Virus record (IMG/VR): IMGVR_UViG_3300019790_000026
Location: 1 to 12,109 of that record
Reading direction: 5' to 3' (one strand)
Source: a virus
Taxonomy: Duplodnaviria; Heunggongvirae; Uroviricota; Caudoviricetes
DNA: 12,109 nucleotides
Part shown: one piece after another, positions 1 to 12,109 of the stretch
Numbering within the stretch: position 1 is the stretch's first letter
Layout: each line of letters starts with the position of its first letter
The notes under the pieces: model-generated
Told to the model about the DNA's origin: nothing
The model's input: the letters and a program-made list of their open reading frames with translations, nothing else
Database searches by the model: none
Made by a program: the position numbers and the translations under genes

Positions 1-264
1 TTCCTCGATCCGGTGTTGTCGTTGTCTCAGCAGTGCACTGGTCTGTTCTGCTTCGGCATAGAGCCGCGCCTGCTCCCGGTTATTGGTTTCAGTCAGAATG
101 GACAGGCTGATAAGCTGGCTGTTTTTCTTCGTCAGTTCCTGCGCTTTACTTTTCAGCGCCGCGCGCTGCGTTTCGATGGTGTGGCTGGCGCTGTTAAGCC
201 GCCACGACTGCCAGCCCAGCGCAACGAGTGCCAGCGCCACCACTACTGCCAGCGCACGCGTCAT
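1..264 (-). CDS. Rz/LysB-like i-spanin, partial (3-prime end lies beyond the left edge)
   Basis: Minus-strand ATG at 264..262 preceded by AAGGAG. Translation MTRALAVVVALALVALGWQSW... has an N-terminal transmembrane segment followed by a charged, coiled-coil-like region, as in Rz-family spanins. The start overlaps the upstream stop as ATGA. Confidence 0.6.
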   Translation of the reverse strand, partial: MTRALAVVVALALVALGWQSWRLNSASHTIETQRAALKSKAQELTKKNSQLISLSILTETNNREQARLYAEAEQTSALLRQRQHRIEE

Positions 265-458
265 AGTCCAGCTCCTTTAAGGCACCAGGCCATCTCCCGC
301 GCACGGCGGTTATCCAGCCCCTGATTAAACACACCTTTTACATAAACCCAGCGCGGCAACTGTCGGCACGCATCTGCCCAGCGCCGCTGATTGAGCAATT
401 TCACCAGTGTGGAACTACAGGCATTGCCCGTTGCTGCTTCTGCAGAGCAGACTCCAGT
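261..458 (-). pseudogene. C-terminal fragment of a GH24 (T4/P22-type) phage lysozyme, 5-prime truncated
   Basis: Minus-strand frame ending in TGA at 263..261 translates to ...LLNQRRWADACRQLPRWVYVKGVFNQGLDNRRAREMAWCLKGAGL, which resembles the conserved C-terminus of phage lysozymes. There is no start codon, and an in-frame stop sits at 459-461, so only about 65 codons remain. Confidence 0.45.
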
Positions 459-546
459 TCAGACAGGCGTTCTTCCTGCTCAGACAGAGATTTTTCGGTT
501 CGCGCGCTCAGGTTTTGCTGCTCAGTGGCGACCAGCTCCACGGCTC

Positions 547-2472
547 ATGACAGTGAAAGCAAAGCGTTTTCGCATCGGGGTGGAAGGTGCCACCACCGAC
601 GGACGCGAAATCCAGCGTGAATGGCTGGAACAGATGGCAGCCAGCTACAACCCGGCGGTGTATACCGCGCTGATTAACCTTGAGCACATCAAGTCTTATC
701 TGCCGGACAGCACCTTTAACCGCTACGGCAAGGTGACGGCGCTGTTTGCTGAGGAAATCACGGAAGGTCCGCTGGCAGGCAAGATGGCGCTGTATGCCGA
801 CGTTGAGCCAACGGAGTCCCTGGTGGAACTGGTGAAAAAACGCGACAAGTGGGGTGACTATGGGCCGCTGGATCAGATGCAGCTCACCACCGCCGCACGC
901 TACTGCCAGCTCATTATGAAGGAGCACAAAGAAGGGAAAGATTTCAAAGAGATTGACCTGCTGGCGCGCCAGTCGGAGCGCCATGCGCGGATCGGCAAGT
1001 TTAACAATGGCGGCAACGAAGCCGACTTAAACCCTAACGTCGCCAACCGCAACAAAGGCCCGCGTCGTCAGCCGGAAAAGAACGTTTTCACCGATGAACA
1101 GATTGAGAAGCTGGAAGAAATCTTCCATTCCTCCATGTTCAACTACCAGCGCCACTGGTGGGAAGCCGGAAAAACCAACCGCATCCGCAACCTGCTGAAG
1201 TCACGCCAGATCGGCGCGACCTTCTATTTTGCCCGTGAAGCCCTGATTGACGCCCTGCTAACCGGGCGTAACCAGATTTTCCTTTCCGCCAGCAAGGCAC
1301 AGGCCCACGTCTTTAAGCAGTACATCATCGACTTCGCCAAAGAAGTGGAGGTGGAGCTGAAAGGCGATCCGATAGTGCTTCCTAACGGGGCCACGCTGTA
1401 CTTCCTCGGCACCAATGCCCGCACGGCCCAGAGTTACCACGGCAACCTGTATCTGGATGAATATTTCTGGATACCGAAATTCCAAGAGCTGCGCAAAGTG
1501 GCTTCCGGTATGGCTATTCACAAAAAATGGCGACAAACCTATTTTTCCACGCCATCCAGCCTGACACACAGTGCTTATCCGTTCTGGTCCGGTGCGCTGT
1601 TCAACCGTGGGCGCAACAAAGCCGACAAGGTGGACATCGACCTGTCCCACAGCAATCTGGCCCCCGGCCTGCTGTGCACAGACGGGCAATACCGCCAGAT
1701 AGTCACCGTGGAAGATGCGGTGCGCGGCGGCTGTAACCTGTTCGACCTCGACCAGCTACGCATGGAGTACAGCCCGGACGAATACCAGAACCTGCTGATG
1801 TGCGAGTTCGTGGACGATCTCGCGTCCGTGTTCCCGCTCAGCGAGCTGCAAGCGTGCATGGTGGACAGTTGGGAAATCTGGACCGACTTTCATGCACTGG
1901 CCCTGCGCCCGTTTGGCTGGCGCGAAGTGTGGATCGGTTATGACCCGGCAAAAGGTACGCAGAACGGCGACAGTGCCGGATGCGTGGTGGTGGCACCGCC
2001 AGCCGTGCCGGGTGGTAAGTTCCGCATTCTTGAGCGTCACCAGTGGCGCGGGATGGACTTCCGCGCCCAGGCTGACGCCATCAAAAAACTGACCGAGCAG
2101 TACAACGTGACCTACATCGGCATCGACTCGACAGGTGTCGGCCACGGGGTTTACGAGAACGTGAAAGCGTTTTTTCCAGCCGTCCGGGAGTTTGTCTACA
2201 ACCCCAACGTTAAAAACGCCCTGGTACTCAAGGCCTACGACATTATCAGTCACCGTCGTCTGGAGTTTGACGCCGGACACACCGACATAGCGCAGTCATT
2301 TATGGCAATCCGTCGCGCCACCACCGCCAGCGGCAACCGCCCAACCTATGAAGCCAGCCGCAGCGAAGAAGCCAGCCATGCCGATCTGGCCTGGGCAACA
2401 ATGCACGCACTGTTTAACGAACCGCTGCAGGGCGAGTCCGCCAATACCAGCAATATTGTGGAGATTTTTTGA
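547..2472 (+). CDS. Terminase ATPase/large subunit (P2 gpP-like) with a foreign N-terminus resembling capsid scaffold/protease gpO (apparent fusion)
   Basis: From about codon 98 onward (KRDKWGD..., DFKEIDLL, SRQIGATFYFAREAL, NQIFLSASKAQAHVFK, LYFLGTNARTAQSYHGN) the ORF matches my recollection of the GpP terminase family. Residues 1-97 (KRFRIGVEGATTDGREI...INLEH...FNRYGKV) match the GPO scaffold N-terminal motifs. ATG at 547 is preferred over the tracked TTG at 391. The stop overlaps the portal start. Confidence 0.7.
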   Translation: MTVKAKRFRIGVEGATTDGREIQREWLEQMAASYNPAVYTALINLEHIKSYLPDSTFNRYGKVTALFAEEITEGPLAGKMALYADVEPTESLVELVKKRDKWGDYGPLDQMQLTTAARYCQLIMKEHKEGKDFKEIDLLARQSERHARIGKFNNGGNEADLNPNVANRNKGPRRQPEKNVFTDEQIEKLEEIFHSSMFNYQRHWWEAGKTNRIRNLLKSRQIGATFYFAREALIDALLTGRNQIFLSASKAQAHVFKQYIIDFAKEVEVELKGDPIVLPNGATLYFLGTNARTAQSYHGNLYLDEYFWIPKFQELRKVASGMAIHKKWRQTYFSTPSSLTHSAYPFWSGALFNRGRNKADKVDIDLSHSNLAPGLLCTDGQYRQIVTVEDAVRGGCNLFDLDQLRMEYSPDEYQNLLMCEFVDDLASVFPLSELQACMVDSWEIWTDFHALALRPFGWREVWIGYDPAKGTQNGDSAGCVVVAPPAVPGGKFRILERHQWRGMDFRAQADAIKKLTEQYNVTYIGIDSTGVGHGVYENVKAFFPAVREFVYNPNVKNALVLKAYDIISHRRLEFDAGHTDIAQSFMAIRRATTASGNRPTYEASRSEEASHADLAWATMHALFNEPLQGESANTSNIVEIF

Positions 2473-3497
2473 TGGGAAAGAGTAAGAAAAACCGCGCTGC
2501 GGCGACGAACCAGATCCAGCATAAAAACCAAACTTCAGCCGAAGCATTCAGCTTCGGTGATCCCGTTCCTGTTCTGGACCGCCGCGAATTACTGGACTAT
2601 GTGGAATGCGTAAAGATGGACCGCTGGTATGAGCCACCCGTAAGTTTTGACGGACTGGCGCGAACATTCCGCGCCGCCGTACACCACAGTTCACCGATTG
2701 CAGTAAAGTGCAACATTCTGACCAGCACCTACATCCCTCACCCGCTGCTCAGCCAGCAGGCGTTTTCACGTTTTGTGCAGGACTATCTGGTTTTTGGTAA
2801 CGCCTACCTGGAGAAACGCACGAACCGATTCGGTGAAGTTATCGCCCTTGAGCCTGCGCTGGCAAAATACACCCGACGCGGATTAGACCTAGATACCTAC
2901 TGGTTTGTGCAATACGGCATGACCACGCAGCCGTATCAGTTCACGAAAGGCAGCATTTTTCATCTGATGGAACCGGACATCAACCAGGAGATCTACGGCC
3001 TGCCCGGCTATCTTTCTGCCATCCCATCCGCCCTGCTCAACGAGTCCGCCACGCTGTTCCGCCGAAAGTATTACATTAACGGTAGTCATGCAGGCTTCAT
3101 CATGTACATGACCGATGCCGCGCAGAACCAGGAAGATGTGAACAACCTCCGCAATGCGATGAAAAGTGCCAAAGGCCCTGGCAACTTCCGCAACCTGTTT
3201 ATGTACTCGCCTAATGGTAAAAAAGACGGACTTCAGATTATCCCGTTGTCAGAAGTCACAGCGAAGGATGAGTTTCTGAATATCAAGAACGTGAGCCGTG
3301 ATGACATGATGGCGGCACACCGCGTGCCGCCGCAAATGATGGGAATTATGCCTAATAATGTCGGGGGGTTTGGGGATGTGGAGAAGGCTAGCAAGGTATT
3401 CGTAAGAAACGAATTGATGCCCCTGCAGAAACGATTGCAGGAACTAAATAACTGGTTGGACGAAGAAGTGCTCAATTTTTCAACCTATGAGCTTTAG
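2472..3497 (+). CDS. Portal protein (P2 gpQ-like)
   Basis: 341-aa ORF directly after the terminase gene with TGATG stop/start overlap. Size and position match P2 Q, and the sequence resembles the gpQ portal family. ATG at 2472 is preferred over the tracked TTG at 2469. Confidence 0.85.
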   Translation: MGKSKKNRAAATNQIQHKNQTSAEAFSFGDPVPVLDRRELLDYVECVKMDRWYEPPVSFDGLARTFRAAVHHSSPIAVKCNILTSTYIPHPLLSQQAFSRFVQDYLVFGNAYLEKRTNRFGEVIALEPALAKYTRRGLDLDTYWFVQYGMTTQPYQFTKGSIFHLMEPDINQEIYGLPGYLSAIPSALLNESATLFRRKYYINGSHAGFIMYMTDAAQNQEDVNNLRNAMKSAKGPGNFRNLFMYSPNGKKDGLQIIPLSEVTAKDEFLNIKNVSRDDMMAAHRVPPQMMGIMPNNVGGFGDVEKASKVFVRNELMPLQKRLQELNNWLDEEVLNFSTYEL

Positions 3498-3502
3498 TTT
3501 TA

Positions 3503-3533
3503 AAACGAAGACCATTAGGTCTTCGCTTTATTT
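3503..3533. terminator. Bidirectional intrinsic terminator shared by the convergent portal and retron RT genes
   Basis: Hairpin CGAAGACC (3506-3513), loop ATTA, GGTCTTCG (3518-3525), flanked by an A-run on the left and CTTTATTT on the right, so it reads as stem plus U-tract on both strands. The RT stop codon lies in the loop. Confidence 0.5.
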
Positions 3534-4477
3534 AAAGGGTTCTTTCCATATTTTTTTTCTAATTTGCTAATATAAGTTATTAATCTCCTATGGCTTTTTG
3601 AATCCACACTTAAAATAAATGACAACCATCCCCTAACGTGTTCTATCTCAGAAGACTTACCGCAAAATATATGATGTATCTTTGCTCTAATTTCTTTATA
3701 TTTTTCTCTACCTATCCCAACTTTCTCTTGTGAAATAACTAAACCTGTAACTTTCCTCTGACTACGAGGCCCACTAATACAAGTTTTTTTTGAGTTAATA
3801 ACCAATCCTTCACTTGGGATTATAGAAAATAAAAAATCACGTGCTTTAACAACCTTTTTCATAGACTGTGCAGATAAGGTGAGATCATCGGCATATCTCG
3901 TATATATCAAGCCCCGACTACCTGCATAACCCTGAATACGATAATCAAGTTTAGAACATATTAGATTAGCTAATTTAGGTGATGATGGAGCACCTTGTGG
4001 TAGCAGATTTTTATAACAACATATTTTTGTCAAAACTGAAGATATTAGTCGATTATAACCAAGAGAATGGAACACTCCAAAAACTTTGTTAGCAGTTAAA
4101 CTTGGGAAAAAATCCTCCAAATCAATATTCAGTATAAAGTTTGCCCCAATATGCGGGGTAGCATTATTCAAAATAGATTGGTGCTTTTCAAATCCAATAG
4201 AAAAAGGAGATGACGACAGTTTATCTAAAATGTTACGTAGAACCCATCCTTGTAAGGCTTTAAGTTCTCGAGAAGGTTGGTAAATGGTTCTCATTCTCTT
4301 CTCTGGGCCTTTCTTTTCTACAGTGTAGATCCTATAGCGAAAATCAGCTGTATAGATTAACAACCGAAGTGTTTCAACAGATATGCGAGTCGCCTTAGAC
4401 ATGTCATGCAAATTGTTCATGACAGGTAGGCCGAGATTTCTCAATCTAAAAGTGTTCAAATATTCAGCGGATTTCAT
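3515..4477 (-). CDS. ret: Retron reverse transcriptase, Ec86 / Retron-Eco1 type
   Basis: 320-aa ORF with reverse-transcriptase motifs (NIDLEDFFPS, LPQGAPSSPKLANL, YADDLTLS) and the retron-typical VTG motif (RKVTGLVIS). The translation matches my memory of the published Ec86 RT, and the gene sits immediately downstream of the msr-msd. Confidence 0.93.
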   Translation of the reverse strand: MKSAEYLNTFRLRNLGLPVMNNLHDMSKATRISVETLRLLIYTADFRYRIYTVEKKGPEKRMRTIYQPSRELKALQGWVLRNILDKLSSSPFSIGFEKHQSILNNATPHIGANFILNIDLEDFFPSLTANKVFGVFHSLGYNRLISSVLTKICCYKNLLPQGAPSSPKLANLICSKLDYRIQGYAGSRGLIYTRYADDLTLSAQSMKKVVKARDFLFSIIPSEGLVINSKKTCISGPRSQRKVTGLVISQEKVGIGREKYKEIRAKIHHIFCGKSSEIEHVRGWLSFILSVDSKSHRRLITYISKLEKKYGKNPLNKAKT

Positions 4478-4484
4478 GAAAGTT

Positions 4485-4496
4485 GCGCACCCTTAC
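4485..4496 (-). repeat. Retron a2 inverted repeat (pairs with a1 at 4641-4652)
   Basis: 12-nt exact reverse complement of 4641-4652. Confidence 0.85.
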
Positions 4497-4639
4497 GTCA
4501 GAAAAAACGGGTTTCCTGGTTGGCTCGGAGAGCATCAGGCGATGCTCTCCGTTCCAACAAGGAAAACAGACAGTAACTCAGATTCAATGCAGGATGCCGA
4601 AACAACATCCAGAGGTTGACCTTAATGATAAACCTCTCG

Positions 4640-5563
4640 CTAAGGGTGCGCATACGGAATCTTATCATAGTTAAATGTTGATTTTCTACGGTTTTCAAAA
4701 TTCATAATCTCAAGCCGCAATCGGTCAAGTGTCTTTCTATCAAAGACGCTCCTAACATAGCTAGCCCCCAAAGCAGTGACCTGATAACCATCAGTCATTT
4801 GAAGTATTTTTCGTTCATTTATTAGACGAGAAACAACGGATCTAACAATAATTTTAGATAAAACATCATCTTGCTTTATCGCTTTAAAAGCTAGTTCACA
4901 CAGTGTGCGGTAGTTGACACTATCCAGTAAATAGATACAAGGCAATAGAAACCGCTCTGCGTATAATATATTTCCAATATCTTTTGATACTTTATTTTCT
5001 TTCCTAACCTTCTTAATAGATGCCATTAATTTTTTATATAATCGTAATTTTCTGGCAACATCAATAGATGAATCACACATTTCTTTTAGTTCATTTGAAC
5101 TACAACGCAAAACAGATTTTGAATTAAACTTACGCAACAGGCGAACAGGACCATAGTTAATAAAGCTACGTTTTGATTTAAATTTTGCATCTTGAATGCA
5201 AATCAACTTTCTCCTTAAGTTTTCATTATTAGAGAACGCACCAAGCTCTGTGAAAGACCCCGGACTTTCAGGAAATAAAATTATTACATCGACAGCTTCA
5301 GCCAGAATATTTTCTAAACTTAAAAGGCTATGCTGCCCTTGACCAGCCAAAAGATCATCAAATAGATCTTCTGGATAAAATATATCAACATCACTGAACT
5401 TTGCTAAAAATTGTGATAATTGATGACGCCAAGATTGATGATTAGCAACGTCACCACCACATAGAAAAATGGTTATTTTAATATTAGCTCCTCGATAGAA
5501 GCCTTTCTTTGTGAGATGTCCTATAAGCTGTTGTTGCTGCTCATCGGTAAATTTTTTATTCAT
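4640..5563 (-). CDS. Retron effector: nucleoside 2-deoxyribosyltransferase-like (NDT) domain with a C-terminal putative DNA-binding region
   Basis: 307-aa ORF immediately upstream of msr-msd-ret on the same strand, with RBS GGGGAGA. The N-terminal region (IFLCGGD..., ILFPESPGSFTELGAF) fits the NDT/flavodoxin-like fold with the conserved Glu. Its TAG stop overlaps the a1 repeat. Confidence 0.85.
   Translation of the reverse strand: MNKKFTDEQQQQLIGHLTKKGFYRGANIKITIFLCGGDVANHQSWRHQLSQFLAKFSDVDIFYPEDLFDDLLAGQGQHSLLSLENILAEAVDVIILFPESPGSFTELGAFSNNENLRRKLICIQDAKFKSKRSFINYGPVRLLRKFNSKSVLRCSSNELKEMCDSSIDVARKLRLYKKLMASIKKVRKENKVSKDIGNILYAERFLLPCIYLLDSVNYRTLCELAFKAIKQDDVLSKIIVRSVVSRLINERKILQMTDGYQVTALGASYVRSVFDRKTLDRLRLEIMNFENRRKSTFNYDKIPYAHP
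4641..4652 (-). repeat. Retron a1 inverted repeat; the presumed priming G follows at 4640
   Basis: 12-nt exact reverse complement of 4485-4496, at the 5-prime end of msr. Confidence 0.85.
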
Positions 5564-5704
5564 AATCTCCCCGCTTTTTTTTCTACTTTATACATCAAGT
5601 TATGAATAGATCCAATCTCCATACCACATGGCGCGCGCTCGTATCCCCGCCACGCCTGCCCGCTTTATGCAGTGGTTTTCATGCACATGCATAACATGAG
5701 CAAA

Positions 5705-5730
5705 AGCCCGCCAGTTCTGGCGGATCTGAG
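5705..5730 (-). terminator. Putative intrinsic terminator (minus-strand sense)
   Basis: Perfect hairpin CCGCCAG-N3-CTGGCGG (5708-5726) followed on the minus strand by GCTTTTGC. Confidence 0.3.
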
Positions 5731-6035
5731 CAAAGACGATCCTCAATCGATCATGCGATTTCATGCAGCATAGTCATGCACTGTCAAGGAAGTGAAAATC
5801 CGTATCTGAATGGCCACTTGAAAAACGGATCATACGGGTTTACAAAGATGAATGTTCGCTGTGAACGGGAAGCGGAAGTTAACTTTCAGATAACATAATC
5901 CATATGCACGAGAACCTCTAAAATAGAATGGGACACCTAAGCGGGGTACTTACAACGATTCTTTCCATATTCACAGTTAACACTCTGTTTGGCGTATTTT
6001 TATTCAAATAGCAAACACCAATAAAAGGAGTTTCC

Positions 6036-6371
6036 ATGAACAATATTCCCCCTATACCACAGTTAGGAATTTATGTCTCAAAAATCGATCCCACCCTACG
6101 TATCACTGTAACCGATGTTGATATTGTTGATGGTGAGGATGATTCTCCTGATGATGAATTGTTTTATTTAGTCCACTGGATCGAGGGGGAAGATGAAAGT
6201 GATATGACAGCAATGGGATTTGAGCTAGACCCAGTAGAGTGGCAGGCTTTCGTTGAATCTGAGCAATTAGTGTTTGAGCGTGATCCGTACATGGATTCAA
6301 TCCCCGAAAATTCAAACTTGGCAAAGATTCGGGATTTTCTCATGAAGACTAAACAGAATGATCATTCGTAA
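6036..6371 (+). CDS. Hypothetical small, strongly acidic protein (111 aa)
   Basis: Strong RBS AAAAGGAG 6 nt upstream of ATG. Very Asp/Glu-rich (DVDIVDGEDDSPDDE, EGEDESD). AT-rich relative to the phage core. Divergent from the retron effector. Confidence 0.7.
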   Translation: MNNIPPIPQLGIYVSKIDPTLRITVTDVDIVDGEDDSPDDELFYLVHWIEGEDESDMTAMGFELDPVEWQAFVESEQLVFERDPYMDSIPENSNLAKIRDFLMKTKQNDHS

Positions 6372-6563
6372 GTGTAAGCATCCATCAGGAAAATGGTTTT
6401 GTAAGTGAATCATCAACTTTTAGAGAGTCTCAGACACTCCCACTTCTGCTTCTGACACAAAGCGGACGATCACTTATCAAAATAACCGCCCACCTTACGC
6501 CTTATTTCACTCATTGCCCAAACTAGCCCCCATCAGAATGAATCCTCCTGGGGGCAACATTTC

Positions 6564-6797
6564 TTAATGCAGCCAGCTGTCGTCCTCCCACACCTTCTGC
6601 ATAATTTTCATCACTTGTTTTCTTTCTTCATCCAGTTGCAGTCCGGTTAGTTCCACACCGTTAGAGCTACCTTTGCGAATGCGAATTACCGTTTTGGGAT
6701 ACAGGGGGCGCAGATTGCGGTAAAGCTCGGATTCAAGGGCGTCCAGGGTAGACTGGCTAATCTTCTGCTCTTTATCGATCATTATTTCAATGCGCAT
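6564..6797 (-). CDS. DinI-family protein (DNA-damage-inducible protein I-like)
   Basis: 77-aa product MRIEIMIDKEQKISQSTLDALESELYRNLRPLYP...VWEDDSWLH has the DinI length and pattern (MRIEV..., C-terminal acidic W motif). RBS GGTGA upstream. ATG at 6797 is preferred over the tracked 101-aa extension. Confidence 0.8.
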   Translation of the reverse strand: MRIEIMIDKEQKISQSTLDALESELYRNLRPLYPKTVIRIRKGSSNGVELTGLQLDEERKQVMKIMQKVWEDDSWLH

Positions 6798-6807
6798 AAA
6801 AGTCACC

Positions 6808-6996
6808 TCAGCTGATGACATCCATTGAGCGGTTGTATTCGTGGCTTCTGATTTTTGCCATGAGTTCATCAGTCAATTCAGAAACCCACTGCAGAGCCAG
6901 CCCCTTCTCTTCATCACTACACTCACTAGCCGCTACAAGCTTAAGAAAAAAATCAATGCGCTGGAGCTTCAAAGACTCCAAAAAATAGTCCTGCAT
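6808..6996 (-). CDS. Hypothetical 62-aa protein, first gene of the SOS-boxed operon (possibly the N-terminal part of a Tum-like antirepressor)
   Basis: ORF with strong RBS AGGAGG, directly downstream of the LexA-box promoter and 10 nt upstream of the DinI-like gene. Confidence 0.5.
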   Translation of the reverse strand: MQDYFLESLKLQRIDFFLKLVAASECSDEEKGLALQWVSELTDELMAKIRSHEYNRSMDVIS

Positions 6997-7036
6997 CTTT
7001 CCTCCTATGACACCAAAACAATACTGTATACATAAC

Positions 7037-7056
7037 CACTGTTTATATTTACAGTA
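7037..7056. promoter_or_regulatory. LexA (SOS) box overlapping a putative promoter for the orf62/DinI-like operon
   Basis: cACTGTttatatttACAGta is a perfect CTGT-N8-ACAG with AT-rich spacer. A second half-site (TACTGTATAC) lies at 7022-7031. A TTTACA / TATACT promoter-like pair is on the minus strand. Confidence 0.7.
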
Positions 7057-7148
7057 TATAATAATCTTACTGATGTAAAACGTTTTTTTACGTTCATCGG
7101 CCTGATATGCCTGGTATTATTAAGAGCACGAATTGTCAACCCGCGTAA

Positions 7149-8594
7149 TTAATACAGGTTCCGCCACTTATCATCTTCCTTCAGACGCTGGTTCCGATAG
7201 AAGATACGCAGGCCTGCTCCTGACGGAATACTGCCGCCGCGAAGGAGCAAATCGACTTCTTTCTCGCTGCCATCAAATCCCCTGGACTTCAGTTCATAGA
7301 CGAGCTGCTGTCGCTGATGGTCTGTAATTCGCTGTTTGTAGTCTTTACGCCGTTTCGGTTTCACCTGGCGTAACCTTGCAGCCAGTTCCCGGCGCTCTTT
7401 TTTGCTCATACTGTGCAGGTAATTGTGCAACTCCTTGTCATTCATACGGGTAATATCCGTTCTGGAGTCCCCATCAGCTGATTTGTCTTTCCCTTGTTGG
7501 TTCAAATTTTCAGCAAGGGGACAGTTATTGCCACGAGTCCAAGGGGCGCAAGCGCCCTGGTCGGCTGCCGCCTCCTGAACGTCAACGGCCTTACGAACCA
7601 TTTTCCACTTCACCGCATGAGTGCAGATCTTGCCCTCTGCAATGGGTGACCAGATGCCATAAATACGAATACCGTGATCGCCATATGCGGTCGGTTCTTC
7701 GTTGATTTCATAAGCAGTTCTGATGAGGTGATATTTGCGGGGAACCAGTACGCCGCCCTGCTTCATGATGTAGGTGGCAAAACAACCAGCATCAGCAGCA
7801 GCCAGGATTGCATCAAGACGCGGGTTATCCAGTACCGGCGCACCTGCTTTTTTGTCACCCTGTTGCCTTGCCGCCTGACCAGCCAGCAATCGCAGTTCAC
7901 GGTAAGCCTGACGCCCCGGAATGCCAAAGAAGCGGAATTGCTGAACACGATGCAGAGACGCCCAGGCATTAACGTATTCAGCGTTATCACGCAGGGATTT
8001 ACCCGTTTCCTTGCTGATCTCCCCAGCCAGACCACGCCCGTCAATGTTCTTACTGATGTATTTCGCGATATAGCTTGTTGGCGTACCTTTGCGCGGGTTT
8101 ATCAGCTCAGACTTAAAGCGTGGTCCCGTGTTATTGCCCAGCTCCTCGCGGTCTTCACGGATGGCAAACTTACGCAGTAATGCAGTGATGGCGCGGCGGT
8201 CTTTTTTACGCATGAAACACATGAGATGCCAGTGCACAGTACCGTCATGATGCGGCTCAGCTACCGCACCTGCAGCAACACGCCCGATCTCTGCGGTTGC
8301 ACTCATGACGTAATGTGGCAGTTTCTCTTTTGCCACCTCATTAATCGGTACGCATGGCAGGCAGTGAATCTGAGCCAGAAAACCATCTACCAGCGTTGAA
8401 TCTTCAGTCAGATCGGTAAGCAGCCAGATTTCTGGTGCGGTTAATAAATGAGGTTGCGCTGGGTTCAACTTGTTCCGCAGAATCTGCACATTCATGCCAG
8501 CACGTTCTGCCAGTTGCACCAGGTTGTGGCGCAATGCGAATGCACGACAGGCTTCATCAAAATGTGGATGTTTGGAAACTTGGTAATCAAACAT
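7149..8594 (-). CDS. In-frame fusion ORF: 186 CII-like N-terminus (~115 aa) joined to the C-terminal catalytic part of a gpA-type rolling-circle replication initiator
   Basis: N-terminus [24 protein letters not shown]...[26 protein letters not shown] matches my recollection of phage 186 CII. The downstream part carries the HUH-like HWHLM motif and the paired-tyrosine motif [12 protein letters not shown] typical of P2 gpA / phiX174 A proteins. ATG at 8594 with RBS AGAGG. Confidence 0.65.
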
Positions 8595-8626
8595 GGTCAA
8601 TGCCTCTGATGTATTTCAGAATCGAA

Positions 8627-8848
8627 CTAATTAAGGTTTAGATTGCATTCTGAAAGCGCATCAACGGTCATTGCTGCTATGTTGATCATCACTTTTTCGC
8701 GTTTTTTATCTTTGCGCAGTCGGTGACGGATAAGGCGTCCATCAGCCAACATGTCATTGATGGTATCGATGGATAGCCCTGTCAGCTCGCTATAGCGTTC
8801 AATAGTCACATGAGGGGTGGTAAGAGTGATTGAAATGTTAGGTCTCAT
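8627..8848 (-). CDS. Apl/Cox-like small HTH protein (first early-lytic gene: excisionase / transcription regulator)
   Basis: 73-aa ORF divergent from the CI gene and immediately upstream of the CII-like ORF, as apl is in phage 186. HTH-like segment [21 protein letters not shown]. Confidence 0.5.
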
Positions 8849-8967
8849 GATGCAACATTCCTCGTTTAATGATGATTAATCAGGACGAATACGGATCGTT
8901 TGTATTTTGTGAACACCATAAACATACGATCGCACAGTGAAATCGTCAAGATAAAAGTTCACTTGGA
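8849..8967. promoter_or_regulatory. Immunity switch region between apl-like and cI-like genes (lytic/lysogenic promoters and candidate operators)
   Basis: 119-bp divergent intergenic region containing related motifs ATACGGATCGTTTGTAT and ATACGATCGCAC. Its position matches the pR/pL switch of 186-type phages. Confidence 0.4.
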
Positions 8968-9543
8968 GTGACCATGAATTTGGAGAAAGGCGGACGAGGC
9001 GCTATAGAGCGCATGGTAGAAGCTTATGGATTCAAGACTCGACAGGCGTTGTGCGATCATTTAGGAATCTCTAAAAGTACACTCGCCACACGCTACATGC
9101 GTGACTCATTCCCAGCAGAATGGGTAATCCAGTGCGCCCTTGAAACAGGCACCTCGCTTAATTGGCTCACAACCGGGCATGGTTCAAAGCAAACTTCAGG
9201 TAATACAAATACTATGGAAGTTGCTAAATATGTATTATCTGATGGGGCCTTGTGTGAAGACGGTTTTTATATTTTCGATAGAGAATTTCTACCGTCGGCA
9301 TTCAAGAATCTTTTTGTAATCACAGATAATAATTCTGAATTTATTTGTGATAAGGAATTTGATGATATACGTGATGGTAAATGGGTAATAAGTATTGATG
9401 GCGAAATAACGATCCGTGACATTACTCGTTTACCCGGTGGAAGAATCTTCGTCGAGGGTGGAAATAGAGCCTTCGAGTGCAAGATAGAAGATGTTGAAAT
9501 AATTGGGAAAATTATAAGTTTAACAATTAAGTACGTTAGGTAA
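8968..9543 (+). CDS. cI: CI-type immunity repressor (phage 186 CI-like)
   Basis: 191 aa (186 CI is 192 aa). N-terminal HTH (TRQALCDHLGISKSTLATRYMRD) with a C-terminal oligomerisation-like domain. RBS GGAGTGA. Divergent from the apl-like gene and upstream of int. Confidence 0.8.
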   Translation: MTMNLEKGGRGAIERMVEAYGFKTRQALCDHLGISKSTLATRYMRDSFPAEWVIQCALETGTSLNWLTTGHGSKQTSGNTNTMEVAKYVLSDGALCEDGFYIFDREFLPSAFKNLFVITDNNSEFICDKEFDDIRDGKWVISIDGEITIRDITRLPGGRIFVEGGNRAFECKIEDVEIIGKIISLTIKYVR

Positions 9544-9558
9544 TACCGGGAGGAAACT

Positions 9559-9750
9559 ATGCTTGGTAAGGTATTTTTTGTGGTTTTATCATGCTCTTTG
9601 TTATTAAACCCACTAACTACCTATGCTAAAAATTATCCTTGTTCTGGGAAAAAGGGAGGTGTCTCTCACTGTACCTCCGATGGAAAGTTCGTTTGCAATG
9701 ATGGAACTATTAGTAAATCAAAAAAAATCTGTACTAAAAACTCGCGATAA
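9559..9750 (+). CDS. Small secreted Cys-rich protein (63 aa) inserted between cI and int
   Basis: RBS GGAGGAAACT-ATG. Predicted signal peptide [23 protein letters not shown], then a Lys-rich mature peptide of about 40 aa with 5 Cys. Confidence 0.55.
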
Positions 9751-9936
9751 ATTTTGCTTTTATATCTGCGCCTAATATAACAATGAGCCGCAGGCTAACC
9801 GCAAAAGTCACATACTCACATAGCAAAAAATAGCTAACTTCATTATGGCTTCAGTGAGATGTATGGTCGCAGGATTTCATACATTGACACTGGTTATACA
9901 TACAGTAAAAATGCTCTCTACTGGAGGGCATTTTTT

Positions 9937-10953
9937 ATGGCAGTACGAAAACTCACCACAGGAAAATGGCTTTGCGAATGTTACCCCGCCGGACGTAGTG
10001 GACGTCGTGTGCGTAAACAATTCGCCACCAAAGGCGAAGCTCTGGCTTTTGAGCGTCACACGATGGAAGAAACCGAAGCAAAGCCCTGGCTGGGCGAATC
10101 AGTGGATCGTCGGACATTGAAAGACGTGATTGAGCTATGGTTCAAACTACATGGTAAATCTCTGACAGCTGGGCAGCATGTCTATGACAAACTGCTGTTG
10201 ATGGTTGACGCTCTGGGCAATCCCCTTGCAACTGATCTAACCTCTAAAATGTTTGCCCACTATCGAGATAAACGCCTGACAGGTGAGATCTACTTCAGCG
10301 AGAAATGGAAGAAAGGAGCAAGCCCGGTCACCATTAACCTGGAGCAAAGCTATCTAAGTAGTGTTTTTAGCGAACTATCCCGCCTGGGCGAATGGTCGTA
10401 TCCGAACCCACTGGAGAACATGCGAAAATTCACCATCGCAGAAAAAGAGATGGCATGGCTTACCCATGAGCAGATTGTTGAACTGCTGGCTGATTGCAAA
10501 CGTCAGGACCCAATTCTGGCACTGGTAGTCAAGATATGCCTAAGCACAGGCGCACGCTGGCGAGAAGCAATAAATCTTACCCGCTCGCAAGTGACCAAAT
10601 ACCGAATTACCTTTGTAAGAACGAAGGGGAAGAAAAACAGAAGCATCCCTATCAGTAAAGAGCTTTACGAAGAGATCATGGCGCTTGATGGGTTCAATTT
10701 CTTTACAGACTGCTATTTTCAATTTTTATCCGTGATGGAAAAAACGTCTATCGTGCTCCCTCGCGGTCAACTGACACACGTTCTGCGCCATACGTTTGCG
10801 GCGCACTTCATGATGTCGGGTGGAAATATCCTTGCTTTGCAAAAAATCCTCGGACATCACGATATAAAAATGACTATGCGCTATGCCCATTTAGCACCCG
10901 ATCATCTTGAGACGGCTCTGAGATTCAACCCCCTCGCAACGCTAGAAGTGTGA
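9937..10953 (+). CDS. int: Tyrosine integrase (P2/186 Int family)
   Basis: 338 aa. Catalytic residues in context: ...STGARWREA..., ...HVLRHTFA..., ...MRYAHL.... RBS GGAGGG. ATG at 9937 is preferred over the tracked start at 9859. Confidence 0.9.
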   Translation: MAVRKLTTGKWLCECYPAGRSGRRVRKQFATKGEALAFERHTMEETEAKPWLGESVDRRTLKDVIELWFKLHGKSLTAGQHVYDKLLLMVDALGNPLATDLTSKMFAHYRDKRLTGEIYFSEKWKKGASPVTINLEQSYLSSVFSELSRLGEWSYPNPLENMRKFTIAEKEMAWLTHEQIVELLADCKRQDPILALVVKICLSTGARWREAINLTRSQVTKYRITFVRTKGKKNRSIPISKELYEEIMALDGFNFFTDCYFQFLSVMEKTSIVLPRGQLTHVLRHTFAAHFMMSGGNILALQKILGHHDIKMTMRYAHLAPDHLETALRFNPLATLEV

Positions 10954-11061
10954 TCTACTGGTGCAAAAATAACATCATCCCCCACTAGCTGAGTTAATTG
11001 CGTCAGAGTAAACTTTTATCAGTATATAAGTTCACTTTTATTCAATATATTAAGAGATTAC

Positions 11062-11394
11062 ATGGCTATCATTACCGTAAAAAAACATACTGTCAAAAAA
11101 GCATTATCGATGGGATTTGAAAAAGTACTTGACGATCGTGGTTATGATTCTGGGGCGTACTACGTTAAAGATGGCAAAAAGTGGATTTTTGATATTGTTG
11201 CGCTTAAGCAAAAACAAGGAGCAACCTCAGATGATGAGTTAAAAATCCTTGGGTATGATGTTGATACATATAATCTTGTAAAAAATGAATCTAATGAACT
11301 GGCTGAACTTTATCAAGATATTGCAGTTGAAGATGGTGAGCCAATGTATCTAGAGGGTGGCGTGTACTTATATCCTGATGGTTCTATCCGTTAG
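11062..11394 (+). CDS. Hypothetical protein (110 aa), AT-rich, just downstream of int
   Basis: ORF with AT-rich promoter-like upstream region. No family recognised. Composition contrasts with the GC-rich sequence that follows it. Confidence 0.5.
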   Translation: MAIITVKKHTVKKALSMGFEKVLDDRGYDSGAYYVKDGKKWIFDIVALKQKQGATSDDELKILGYDVDTYNLVKNESNELAELYQDIAVEDGEPMYLEGGVYLYPDGSIR

Positions 11395-11528
11395 CATGCA
11401 AATTGGCAGCACAACCGGGTTGTTCCAAATGGCGACAAAGTGGCGGCAGCGGTTGGCATTACCCCGTAATAACCACCACTGACCACCAACCCAACTTATT
11501 GTTTTTACTATAACTTATTGTTTTCATT

Positions 11529-11594
11529 AACCCGTTTACATAAATGGGTTTTTTGTTATCTAAAACTTATCTACTACCCTGCAACCCTCTCAAC
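11529..11594. repeat. Inverted repeat copy A (66 bp, perfect reverse complement of 12044-12109)
   Basis: Direct comparison: 11529-11594 equals the reverse complement of 12044-12109 at every position. Confidence 0.95.
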
Positions 11595-12074
11595 CATCCT
11601 CAAAATCTCCTCGCGCGATAGCGGCTTACGGTCGGTGACAAAATGCAGCGTCATCCCCTCAATAAACGCATCAAGCGCGCGGGCGGTTCCGGGTTCAAAC
11701 CATTGTTCGAGCGTTTGCTGACTGCGCTGCATCCAGTTTTGCATTACCGTTTTTAATAGCGGTTTTCGGCTAGCCAGCGCGTAGAGCTGGTACATCAGCT
11801 CCATGTTATCCGGCGTTGCAACCTGTGAGCTGTAGATCATATCGGTGATAGCCTGGCATGCGCCCGGAGCATCACTAACATCGCTAAAAAATGCCTGATA
11901 TTGCCGGGACATGATCTCAGTAAAACTGCTGAACGCCTCCAGTAACAACTCATCAATTCCTGAAAAATAGTAGGTCATCGATCCCAACGGTACCCCGGCA
12001 AGGGTAGCAATTTTGCGGTGCGTAACAGCATGTATTCCGTAAAGTTGAGAGGGTTGCAGGGTAGTAGATAAGTT
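11574..12074 (-). pseudogene. TetR-family transcriptional regulator, apparently 5-prime truncated by the inverted repeat
   Basis: The minus-strand frame is open from 12074 to the TAG at 11576..11574. It encodes a TetR-type HTH ([27 protein letters not shown]) and a ligand-binding-like C-terminal domain. There is no ATG upstream of the HTH (only a TTG at 11987, inside the HTH). The first codons and the last codons plus stop lie inside the two inverted-repeat copies. Confidence 0.65.
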
Positions 12075-12109
12075 TTAGATAACAAAAAACCCATTTATGT
12101 AAACGGGTT
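12044..12109. repeat. Inverted repeat copy B (66 bp, cut by the window edge, so it may be longer)
   Basis: Perfect reverse complement of 11529-11594. The window ends inside or at the end of the repeat. Confidence 0.95.

What the first reader, a model, noticed from the sequence alone, without database searches (positions are those of the whole stretch)
1..546. Lysis cassette remnant directly abuts the head-gene fusion; most morphogenesis genes are absent
A 5-prime-truncated lysozyme fragment and an Rz-like gene on the minus strand lie only about 90 bp from the gpO-like start. In an intact P2/186 genome, the rest of O and the other head, terminase-small and holin genes would lie between them. 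This marks a large deletion and means the element is very likely a cryptic prophage.
Basis: inference. Interest (0 to 1): 0.45.

Follow-up and report, generated by a model that had tools for sequence, protein, structure and literature searches.

The report
Known deletion scar, E. coli B prophage
Bases 1-546 hold the 3.1-kb deletion scar of the well-known defective P2-like prophage of E. coli B/BL21 (the one carrying retron Ec86), so the finding is ordinary; the adjacent "head-gene fusion" exists only in this copy of the sequence and may be an artefact.

Summary
The features exist. On the minus strand lie the first 88 codons of the spanin gene lysB (1-264, cut by the window edge) and the last 56 codons of an endolysin (261-431).

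They are not spacer but codons 204-241 of the scaffold gene gpO, also on the minus strand. The real deletion joint is at 431/432, between endolysin codon 116 and gpO codon 241.

An intact sibling prophage in E. coli 20A24, at the same chromosomal site and 100% identical on both flanks, shows that exactly 3,146 bp are missing. These are the gpO 3' end, N, M, L, X, the holin and 115 endolysin codons.

The joint is identical in 44 of 5,426 complete E. coli genomes. 43 carry B-lineage strain names and one is labelled strain C. This is the published P2-type prophage Rybb*B, which carries retron Ec86. Two further internal deletions support calling it defective.

The plus-strand gpO start fused to terminase P is a separate matter. 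It needs an inversion flanked by two deletions. It is absent from every genome, phage, metagenome and protein collection searched. A second foldback junction sits at the window's right end. It is a private rearrangement or a chimera.

Novelty: already known. Interest is low.

The parts
1..264 (-). lysB (Rz-like inner-membrane spanin), codons 1-88 of 142. It is cut by the window edge, not by mutation.
   Evidence: NCBIfam TIGR03495, profile positions 2-86 of 135. RefSeq annotates LysB in L001 at 11836-12264. The stretch is 100% identical to B genomes.
261..431 (-). Endolysin 3' remnant: codons 116-171 plus the stop. The N-terminal 115 codons are deleted.
   Evidence: Pfam Phage_lysozyme positions 81-125 of 125. 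55 of 56 residues are identical to Cartapus endolysin residues 116-171. RefSeq marks it as a pseudogene 'missing N-terminus'.
431..432 (.). Ancient deletion joint between the endolysin remnant and the gpO remnant, with 2-bp AA/TT microhomology. 3,146 bp are missing.
   Evidence: Window 1-432 equals L005 13664-14095 and window 431-544 equals L005 17242-17355, both at 100%. The same joint is seen against Cartapus, 7681 and 4534. It is present in 44 of 5,426 complete genomes: 43 with B-lineage names and one labelled strain C.
401..544 (-). gpO (capsid scaffold/protease) remnant: codons 204-241, then 9 out-of-frame codons (RAMPVVPHW) read from endolysin DNA, then TGA at 401-403.
   Evidence: BLASTP to Cartapus gpO residues 204-244, E 2e-20. 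In B genomes this is the 3' end of a 250-aa 'GPO family' CDS.
539..544 (.). Window-private junction 1, with CACGGC microhomology. Minus-strand mid-gpO is joined to the inverted gpO 5' end.
   Evidence: The junction 31-mer is absent from viral and metagenome contigs.
545..840 (+). Inverted block: 2 nt of leader plus gpO codons 1-98 (ATG at 547). The native GGAG ribosome-binding site is lost.
   Evidence: It is the reverse complement of L001 13161-12857. The only mismatch lies at the junction edge, position 841. Pfam Phage_GPO positions 2-97 of 268.
834..840 (.). Window-private junction 2, with GAAAAAA microhomology. Inverted gpO codon 98 is joined in frame to terminase P codon 46.
   Evidence: The junction 33-mer is absent from genome and metagenome contigs.
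841..2472 (+). Terminase large subunit gpP lacking its first 45 codons. The O-P intergenic region with both late promoters is also lost.
   Evidence: Terminase_5 positions 34-58 of 58 only, with Terminase_6N and Terminase_6C complete. 100% identical to L001 from 13424 onward. The TGT-N12-ACA activator-type site at L001 13232 is missing from the window.
2469..3497 (+). Portal protein gpQ, intact.
   Evidence: Pfam Phage_portal and RefSeq annotation.

Best explanation
Bases 1-546 are a dead deletion scar, not a working system. The window is the E. coli B-lineage (BL21, REL606) defective P2-type prophage integrated next to rcdA at the rybB site. It is published as Rybb*B and carries retron Ec86/Eco1.

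The ancestral late operon ran O-N-M-L-X-Y(holin)-K(endolysin)-lysB-lysC-R-S on one strand, divergent from P-Q. One illegitimate deletion with only 2 bp of microhomology joined gpO codon 241 to endolysin codon 116. It removed 3,146 bp:
- the scaffold C-terminus
- the major capsid protein
- the small terminase
- the head-completion protein
- X
- the holin
- the N-terminal 115 codons of the endolysin

These steps are shown. Two further deletions are also shown: 3,357 bp joining CII to gpA, and about 6.9 kb joining the invertase to gpD.

It is inferred that the element can no longer replicate, build heads or tails, package or lyse. It also seems to persist as a vertically inherited carrier of the retron, the repressor and the integrase.

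The plus-strand gpO(1-98)::gpP(46-588) ORF just right of the scar is a later change seen only in this sequence. About 300 bp were inverted. About 312 bp (gpO codons 99-203) were deleted on one side. About 262 bp were deleted on the other side, taking the pO/pP promoter region and the first 128 nt of P. All three private junctions, including a foldback at 12044-12109, show 3-7 bp of microhomology.

I judge this most likely (about 60%) to be a template-switch chimera or an assembly or engineering artefact. A true mutation is less likely (about 30%). In either case the fusion has no recognisable promoter or ribosome-binding site and should be inert.
For: Identity of the window:
- It is 100% identical to a B-lineage genome in three blocks covering all bases.
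- RefSeq annotation of that locus shows lysB, an endolysin pseudogene missing its N-terminus, a 250-aa GPO protein on the same strand, then divergent P and Q.

Size and content of the deletion:
- The intact sibling prophage in strain 20A24 sits at the same site, with the same retron and identical LysB and LysC proteins. It has the full O-N-M-L-X-holin-lysozyme set.
- Both flanks of the joint are 100% identical to it, and the gap is 3,146 bp.
- Phage Cartapus gives the same gap, 4535-7680.

Distribution:
- The joint is present at 100% identity in 44 of 5,426 genomes, 43 of them with B-lineage strain names. About 1,000 other genomes match only one half of it.

Domain truncations and other deletions:
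- Pfam and NCBIfam confirm the truncations.
- Further deletion joints are seen.

Literature:
- PMC3032704 Table 2 lists the P2-type prophage Rybb*B and states that it carries retron Ec86.
- bioRxiv 10.1101/2020.06.22.160242 calls RT-Eco1 a P2-like prophage gene of BL21.

Private junctions:
- No genome covers at least 80% of window 1-1000, 470-910 or 11940-12109.
- The junction k-mers are absent from viral, metagenome and genome contigs.
- The fusion protein is not on record.
- None of the top 120 homologues lists a GPO domain; the best cover 84-87% of the fusion.
- The window has a terminal 66-nt perfect inverted repeat.
- No promoter-like site lies in 1-900.
Against: Nothing contradicts the scar reading.

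Loss of function (no particles, no lysis) is inferred from gene content. It was not tested here, and I could not read a paper that states it experimentally.

For the private rearrangement the sequence alone cannot separate artefact from real mutation. The fusion is in frame, which has a one-in-three chance. The inverted block is otherwise error-free, which fits either origin.
Confidence: 0.9

Rival explanations
1. The window-private inversion with two flanking deletions, and the rcdA foldback, are genuine mutations in an unsampled B-lineage derivative. They would be replication template-switch events using 3-7 bp of microhomology. The gpO::gpP fusion would then be a real, though probably silent, gene.
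For: All junctions show short microhomology. After the inverted block the sequence returns cleanly to the original orientation, and the fusion is in frame. Every other base is 100% identical to B genomes. Neither the prophage late genes nor rcdA would be expected to be essential (background knowledge, not tested here).
Against: There are three novel junctions in 12 kb of an otherwise identical sequence. None is found in 5,426 complete genomes, including the 44 that carry the 431/432 joint. None is found in any contig or protein collection searched. The third junction is an inverted duplication 66 nt from the sequence end. From my own knowledge, that pattern is typical of amplification or assembly chimeras.
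Confidence: 0.3
2. One reading: one large deletion brought the lysis remnant next to the gpO start, and the gpO-P fusion belongs to the same old decay of the prophage.
For: In the window the endolysin-frame ORF ends about 88 bp from the gpO ATG.
Against: K and lysB are on the minus strand and the gpO start is on the plus strand, so a deletion alone cannot join them. The 113 bases between them are gpO codons 204-241 on the minus strand. All 44 complete genomes that carry the scar keep O whole up to codon 241 and divergent from P.
Confidence: 0.03
3. The order lysB-endolysin fragment-gpO is native to some described phage lineage, so no deletion occurred.
For: None found.
Against: None of 67 matching phage records has one place covering at least 80% of window 1-3600. 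P2, 186, Cartapus and the 20A24 prophage all have O-N-M-L-X-Y-K-lysB. The endolysin piece covers only the last third of its Pfam profile.
Confidence: 0.01
4. The remnant is retained because it still functions. For example, gpO', lysB and lysC might be expressed from pO on superinfection by a P2-like or P4 phage and affect lysis or the capsid assembly of the invader.
For: In B genomes ogr, the pO/pP region with a TGT-N12-ACA site, a 250-aa gpO' and intact lysB and lysC remain.
Against: There are no data on expression or phenotype. The holin and most of the endolysin (codons 1-115) are gone. In this window the promoter region itself is deleted. Sequence conservation among clonal laboratory strains says nothing about selection.
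Confidence: 0.05

Closest known systems
Defective P2-type prophage 'Rybb*B' of E. coli B (REL606, BL21), carrier of retron Ec86/Eco1
   Same: It is 100% identical over every block of the window. It has the same endolysin-gpO joint, the same CII-gpA joint, the same retron, repressor and integrase, and the same rcdA flank.
   Different: The window also has an inverted gpO 5' block, two small flanking deletions and a terminal foldback in rcdA. None of these is seen in any sequenced B genome.
Intact sibling prophage of E. coli 20A24 (NZ_CP147044.1), same insertion site and same retron
   Same: Both flanks of the scar are 100% identical. The P-Q-retron-cos-gpA block is 99.4% identical. LysB, LysC, reverse transcriptase and effector have identical protein accessions.
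   Different: 20A24 keeps the 3,146 bp (O 3' end, N, M, L, X, holin, endolysin 5' part) and the 3,357 bp (gpA 5' part, Dam, TraR/DksA-family gene, DUF2732, DUF5347, Fil, CII 3' part). Its repressor region is divergent, about 86% or unrelated.
Escherichia phage Cartapus (Peduoviridae, Elveevirus), NC_070909
   Same: It has the same late-gene order and is about 95% identical in DNA. The endolysin fragment is 98% identical and the gpO fragments are 88-99% identical.
   Different: It is a complete 33.4-kb phage. It carries a DUF4145 gene instead of the retron at the cos-Q cargo site.
Prototype phages P2 and 186
   Same: The architecture is the same: cos, Q and P divergent from O-N-M-L-X-Y-K-lysB-lysC, with an activator site between P and O.
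   Different: They are distant in sequence. P2 P and Q are 67% identical in DNA and gpO is 48% identical in protein. There is no detectable match to the P2 lysis genes or to the 186 endolysin. P2 also has an extra lysA gene.

Membership tests
P2-like (Peduoviridae) late-gene cluster | Hallmark proteins present: gpO scaffold/protease, gpP large terminase, gpQ portal and LysB spanin. | tested here: met
   Pfam PF05929, PF06056, PF03237, PF17289 and PF04860. NCBIfam TIGR03495.
P2-like (Peduoviridae) late-gene cluster | Q-P operon divergent from the O operon, with a shared activator-dependent promoter region. | tested here: not met
   It is met in B genomes and in 20A24. In this window the gpO 5' end is inverted, and 134 of the 142 intergenic bases plus the first 128 nt of P are missing.
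P2-like (Peduoviridae) late-gene cluster | Complete head and lysis gene set N, M, L, X, Y and K between O and lysB. | tested here: not met
   A 3,146-bp gap relative to 20A24 and Cartapus removes all of them, leaving only the last 56 codons of K.
Defective (cryptic) prophage | Internal deletions of essential genes relative to an intact close relative at the same site. | tested here: met
   There are three deletion joints: endolysin-gpO, CII-gpA and invertase-gpD.
Defective (cryptic) prophage | Fixed and vertically inherited in a host lineage. | tested here: met
   The joint is identical in all 44 matching complete genomes, 43 with B-lineage names, and occurs in no other genome.
Defective (cryptic) prophage | No infectious particles on induction. 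| not testable with these tools
   This needs a wet-lab induction or helper experiment.
Functional phage lysis cassette (holin-endolysin-spanins) | Holin gene present. | tested here: not met
   The HP1-family holin of 20A24 (L005 14420-14635) lies inside the deleted segment.
Functional phage lysis cassette (holin-endolysin-spanins) | Full-length endolysin. | tested here: not met
   Only Pfam profile positions 81-125 of 125 remain. Codons 1-115 are deleted.
Functional phage lysis cassette (holin-endolysin-spanins) | Spanin pair LysB/LysC. | tested here: met
   The first 88 codons of lysB are in the window. The rest of lysB and lysC lie just outside it in B genomes.

The most novel reading that the evidence does not exclude
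The private junctions are real. An unsampled B-lineage strain would have undergone microhomology-mediated template-switch events. These inverted the gpO 5' end, created an in-frame scaffold-protease::terminase chimera, and made an inverted duplication in rcdA. That would point to an unusual foldback-type mutational process acting in a laboratory E. coli.
Probability: 0.25. Interest if true: 0.3.

Novelty: already known. Interest (0 to 1): 0.1.

Why it matters
It matters little for biology. The scar only documents how the B-lineage P2-type prophage lost its head and lysis genes while keeping retron Ec86.

There are two practical points:
- The 431/432 joint is an exact sequence marker of E. coli B/BL21 DNA. 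It can flag contamination from a laboratory strain or a recombinant enzyme in other datasets.
- The three private junctions warn that this window is not a faithful copy of any known genome. ORF-level readings such as the "head-gene fusion" should not be trusted until they are checked against raw reads.

Tried and rejected
P2 aligns only over P and Q (67% DNA) and the gpO N-terminus (48% protein). The 186 endolysin shows no similarity. I used Cartapus and the 20A24 prophage instead. The 186 locus (L004) never appeared in the script folder, so it was compared only through protein comparison.
- I searched for the source of the private junctions and found nothing. This covered exact k-mer scans of viral, metagenome (two scans) and genome contigs, two exact-protein look-ups and one homologue search.
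- The look-up translated the TTG start as written, possibly as Leu, so that negative result is weaker.
- The Rfam gathering-threshold scan of the window found nothing, not even the retron msr/msd region.
- The promoter and terminator scan of 1-900 found nothing.
- The Pfam hit of the LysB fragment to a tail-tube family (E 0.003, below its cut-off) was dismissed as noise.
- One search failed on a term that was too short.
- A 2026 bioRxiv paper on H-NS and BL21 prophages, listed, could not be opened.
- I could not retrieve the primary E. coli B genome papers to quote an explicit statement that the prophage is defective.

Full report
**What is in 1-546**

ORF listing and translation show three coding remnants, all on the minus strand.
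- Bases 1-264 encode the first 88 residues of a LysB-type spanin. They match NCBIfam TIGR03495 at profile positions 2-86 of 135. The gene is interrupted only by the window edge. In B-lineage genomes the full 142-aa gene scores 177.7 bits against a cut-off of 92.75.
- Bases 261-431 encode the last 56 residues of an endolysin. They match Pfam Phage_lysozyme positions 81-125 of 125, E 8.7e-11. 55 of 56 residues are identical to residues 116-171 of the 171-aa endolysin of phage Cartapus.
- Bases 432-544 are codons 204-241 of the capsid scaffold/protease gpO (BLASTP E 2e-20). Nine out-of-frame codons (RAMPVVPHW) read from endolysin DNA follow, then a TGA at 401-403.

**Where the window comes from**

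The window is 100% identical to E. coli B-lineage chromosomes, for example NEBExpress NZ_CP174526 (locus L001). It maps in four blocks:
- 1-544 equals L001 12001-12544.
- 539-843 equals L001 13161-12857, inverted.
- 834-12046 equals L001 13424-24636.
- 12044-12109 equals L001 24184-24119, inverted.

RefSeq annotation of that locus shows a P2-type prophage between ybjL and rcdA. It has the following content:
- ogr
- a gpD fragment joined to an invertase fragment
- tail-fibre and baseplate genes, then S, R, lysC and lysB
- an endolysin pseudogene 'missing N-terminus'
- a 250-aa GPO protein
- divergent terminase P and portal Q
- the St85-family retron (reverse transcriptase plus effector, that is Ec86/Eco1)
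- DinI
- a gpA pseudogene joined to a CII pseudogene
- CI and the integrase

The literature lists it as the P2-type prophage Rybb*B at rybB in E. coli B and states that it carries retron Ec86 (PMC3032704). RT-Eco1 is described as a P2-like prophage gene of BL21 (bioRxiv 10.1101/2020.06.22.160242).

**The real deletion**

Against phage Cartapus (NC_070909, about 95% identical) the window maps as follows:
- 1-432 aligns to 8112-7681.
- 431-544 aligns to 4534-4421.
- Positions 4535-7680, which is 3,146 bp, are missing.

A better comparator turned up. E. coli 20A24 from municipal wastewater carries the same retron next to the same portal gene. Its annotation shows an apparently complete prophage beside rcdA, with these genes:
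- gpO (277 aa), N, M, L, X
- an HP1-family holin and a 171-aa lysozyme
- lysB and lysC, with the same protein accessions as in B
- tail sheath, tail tube and tape measure
- full-length gpA, Dam and CII

The window aligns to 20A24 at 100% on both sides of the joint. Window 1-432 equals L005 13664-14095, and 431-544 equals L005 17242-17355. The gap is again exactly 3,146 bp.

The lost segment holds the last 36 codons of gpO, the genes N, M, L, X and Y, and endolysin codons 1-115. The joint has only a 2-bp AA microhomology, so it is an illegitimate deletion.

The joint occurs at 100% identity in 44 of 5,426 complete E. coli genomes. 43 carry B-lineage strain names: B, REL606, BL21 and derivatives, C41/C43, NEBExpress, ATCC 11303 and NCTC10537. 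One is labelled strain C. About 1,000 other genomes match only the endolysin half or only the gpO half, at separate places.

Among 67 matching phage records, none has one place covering at least 80% of window 1-3600. P2 and 186 both have the canonical order O-N-M-L-X-Y-K-lysB.

**Further evidence that the prophage is defective**

A second joint lies at window 8258-8269. It fuses CII to gpA and removes 3,357 bp relative to 20A24. The lost genes are the gpA 5' part, Dam, a TraR/DksA-family gene, DUF2732, DUF5347, Fil and the CII 3' end.

A third joint lies outside the window at L001 4150/4151. It fuses an invertase fragment to a gpD fragment. It removes about 6.9 kb holding sheath, tube, E, T, U and most of D.

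Loss of capsid, small terminase, holin, most of the endolysin, the tail shaft and the replication endonuclease is shown by sequence. Inability to form particles is an inference from that.

**The 'head-gene fusion' is something else**

With K and lysB on the minus strand, gpO must also be on the minus strand and P must diverge from it. That is what B genomes and 20A24 show.

In the window the first 98 codons of gpO are inverted (545-840) and joined in frame to P codon 46. Three stretches of the B genome are absent:
- gpO codons 99-203, about 312 bp
- 134 of the 142 bp of the O-P intergenic region
- the first 128 nt of P

The lost intergenic stretch includes a TGT-N12-ACA element (L001 13232). 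From my own knowledge this resembles the Ogr/B activator site, and it is conserved in Cartapus.

The native GGAG upstream of the gpO ATG is also lost. No sigma-70-like promoter is detected in 1-900.

Pfam confirms the chimera: Phage_GPO positions 2-97 of 268, then Terminase_5 positions 34-58 of 58, then complete Terminase_6N and Terminase_6C.

The junction microhomologies are CACGGC and GAAAAAA. A third private junction (GTT, 12044-12046) turns the sequence back on itself. Bases 12044-12109 are the perfect reverse complement of 11529-11594, with 449 nt between the arms. This interrupts rcdA.

None of these junctions could be found anywhere:
- No complete genome covers at least 80% of window 1-1000, 470-910 or 11940-12109. 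rcdA sequence itself is present in 5,421 of 5,426 genomes.
- The junction k-mers are absent from viral, metagenome and genome contig collections.
- The fusion protein is not on record.
- None of the top 120 homologues lists a GPO domain; the best cover 84-87% of the fusion.

**Interpreting the private junctions**

There are three inverted, microhomology-mediated junctions within 12 kb of otherwise perfect B-strain sequence, and one sits 66 nt from the end. From my own knowledge this is the signature of template-switch chimeras made during strand-displacement amplification or library and assembly steps. B/BL21 DNA is also a common contaminant of recombinant enzymes.

I therefore put about 60% on an artefact or engineered sequence and about 30% on a genuine private rearrangement. 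The sequence alone cannot decide. Read mapping or PCR would.

**Verdict**

The scar is a documented feature of a heavily studied laboratory lineage, so novelty is 'already known' and interest is low, about 0.1.

Noticed in passing
window 12044-12109 (partner arm 11529-11594): The last 66 bases are a perfect reverse complement of the rcdA 3' end and terminator region 449 nt upstream. A GTT microhomology marks the junction. This interrupts rcdA and occurs in none of 5,426 complete E. coli genomes.
   Followed up: yes
window 8258-8269 (ORF 7149-8600, minus strand): A second deletion joint, with about 12 bp of overlap, fuses the CII N-terminus to the gpA C-terminus in one 483-aa ORF. Relative to the 20A24 prophage 3,357 bp are missing. 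RefSeq annotates two pseudogenes here.
   Followed up: yes
window 3515-5563, with cos homology at 5627-5781: Retron Ec86/Eco1 sits between the portal gene Q and the cos site. It comprises the reverse transcriptase (3515-4477), a presumed msr/msd region (about 4480-4640) and a 307-aa effector (4640-5563). This is the P2 cargo hotspot described in bioRxiv 10.1101/2021.01.21.427644. Cartapus carries a DUF4145 gene at this position. Rfam gave no hit for the msr/msd region.
   Followed up: partly
L005 (E. coli 20A24, NZ_CP147044.1) 1-33487: This is an apparently intact sibling prophage with the same retron at the same chromosomal site. Three other non-B genomes also carry the retron-portal block: VG1046-3E9, JNE082640 and FDAARGOS_433. 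The repressor region differs from the B copy (about 86% or unrelated), which indicates mosaicism.
   Followed up: partly
one search hit H56, NZ_CP029371.1: A genome labelled 'Escherichia coli strain C, cow's milk' carries the exact B-lineage scar and retron at 100% identity. Either the strain label is wrong or the strain derives from the B lineage.
   Followed up: no
L001 4150-4151 (outside the window): A third deletion joint of the same prophage fuses an invertase fragment to a gpD fragment. About 6.9 kb of tail sheath, tube, tape-measure and U genes are missing.
   Followed up: partly
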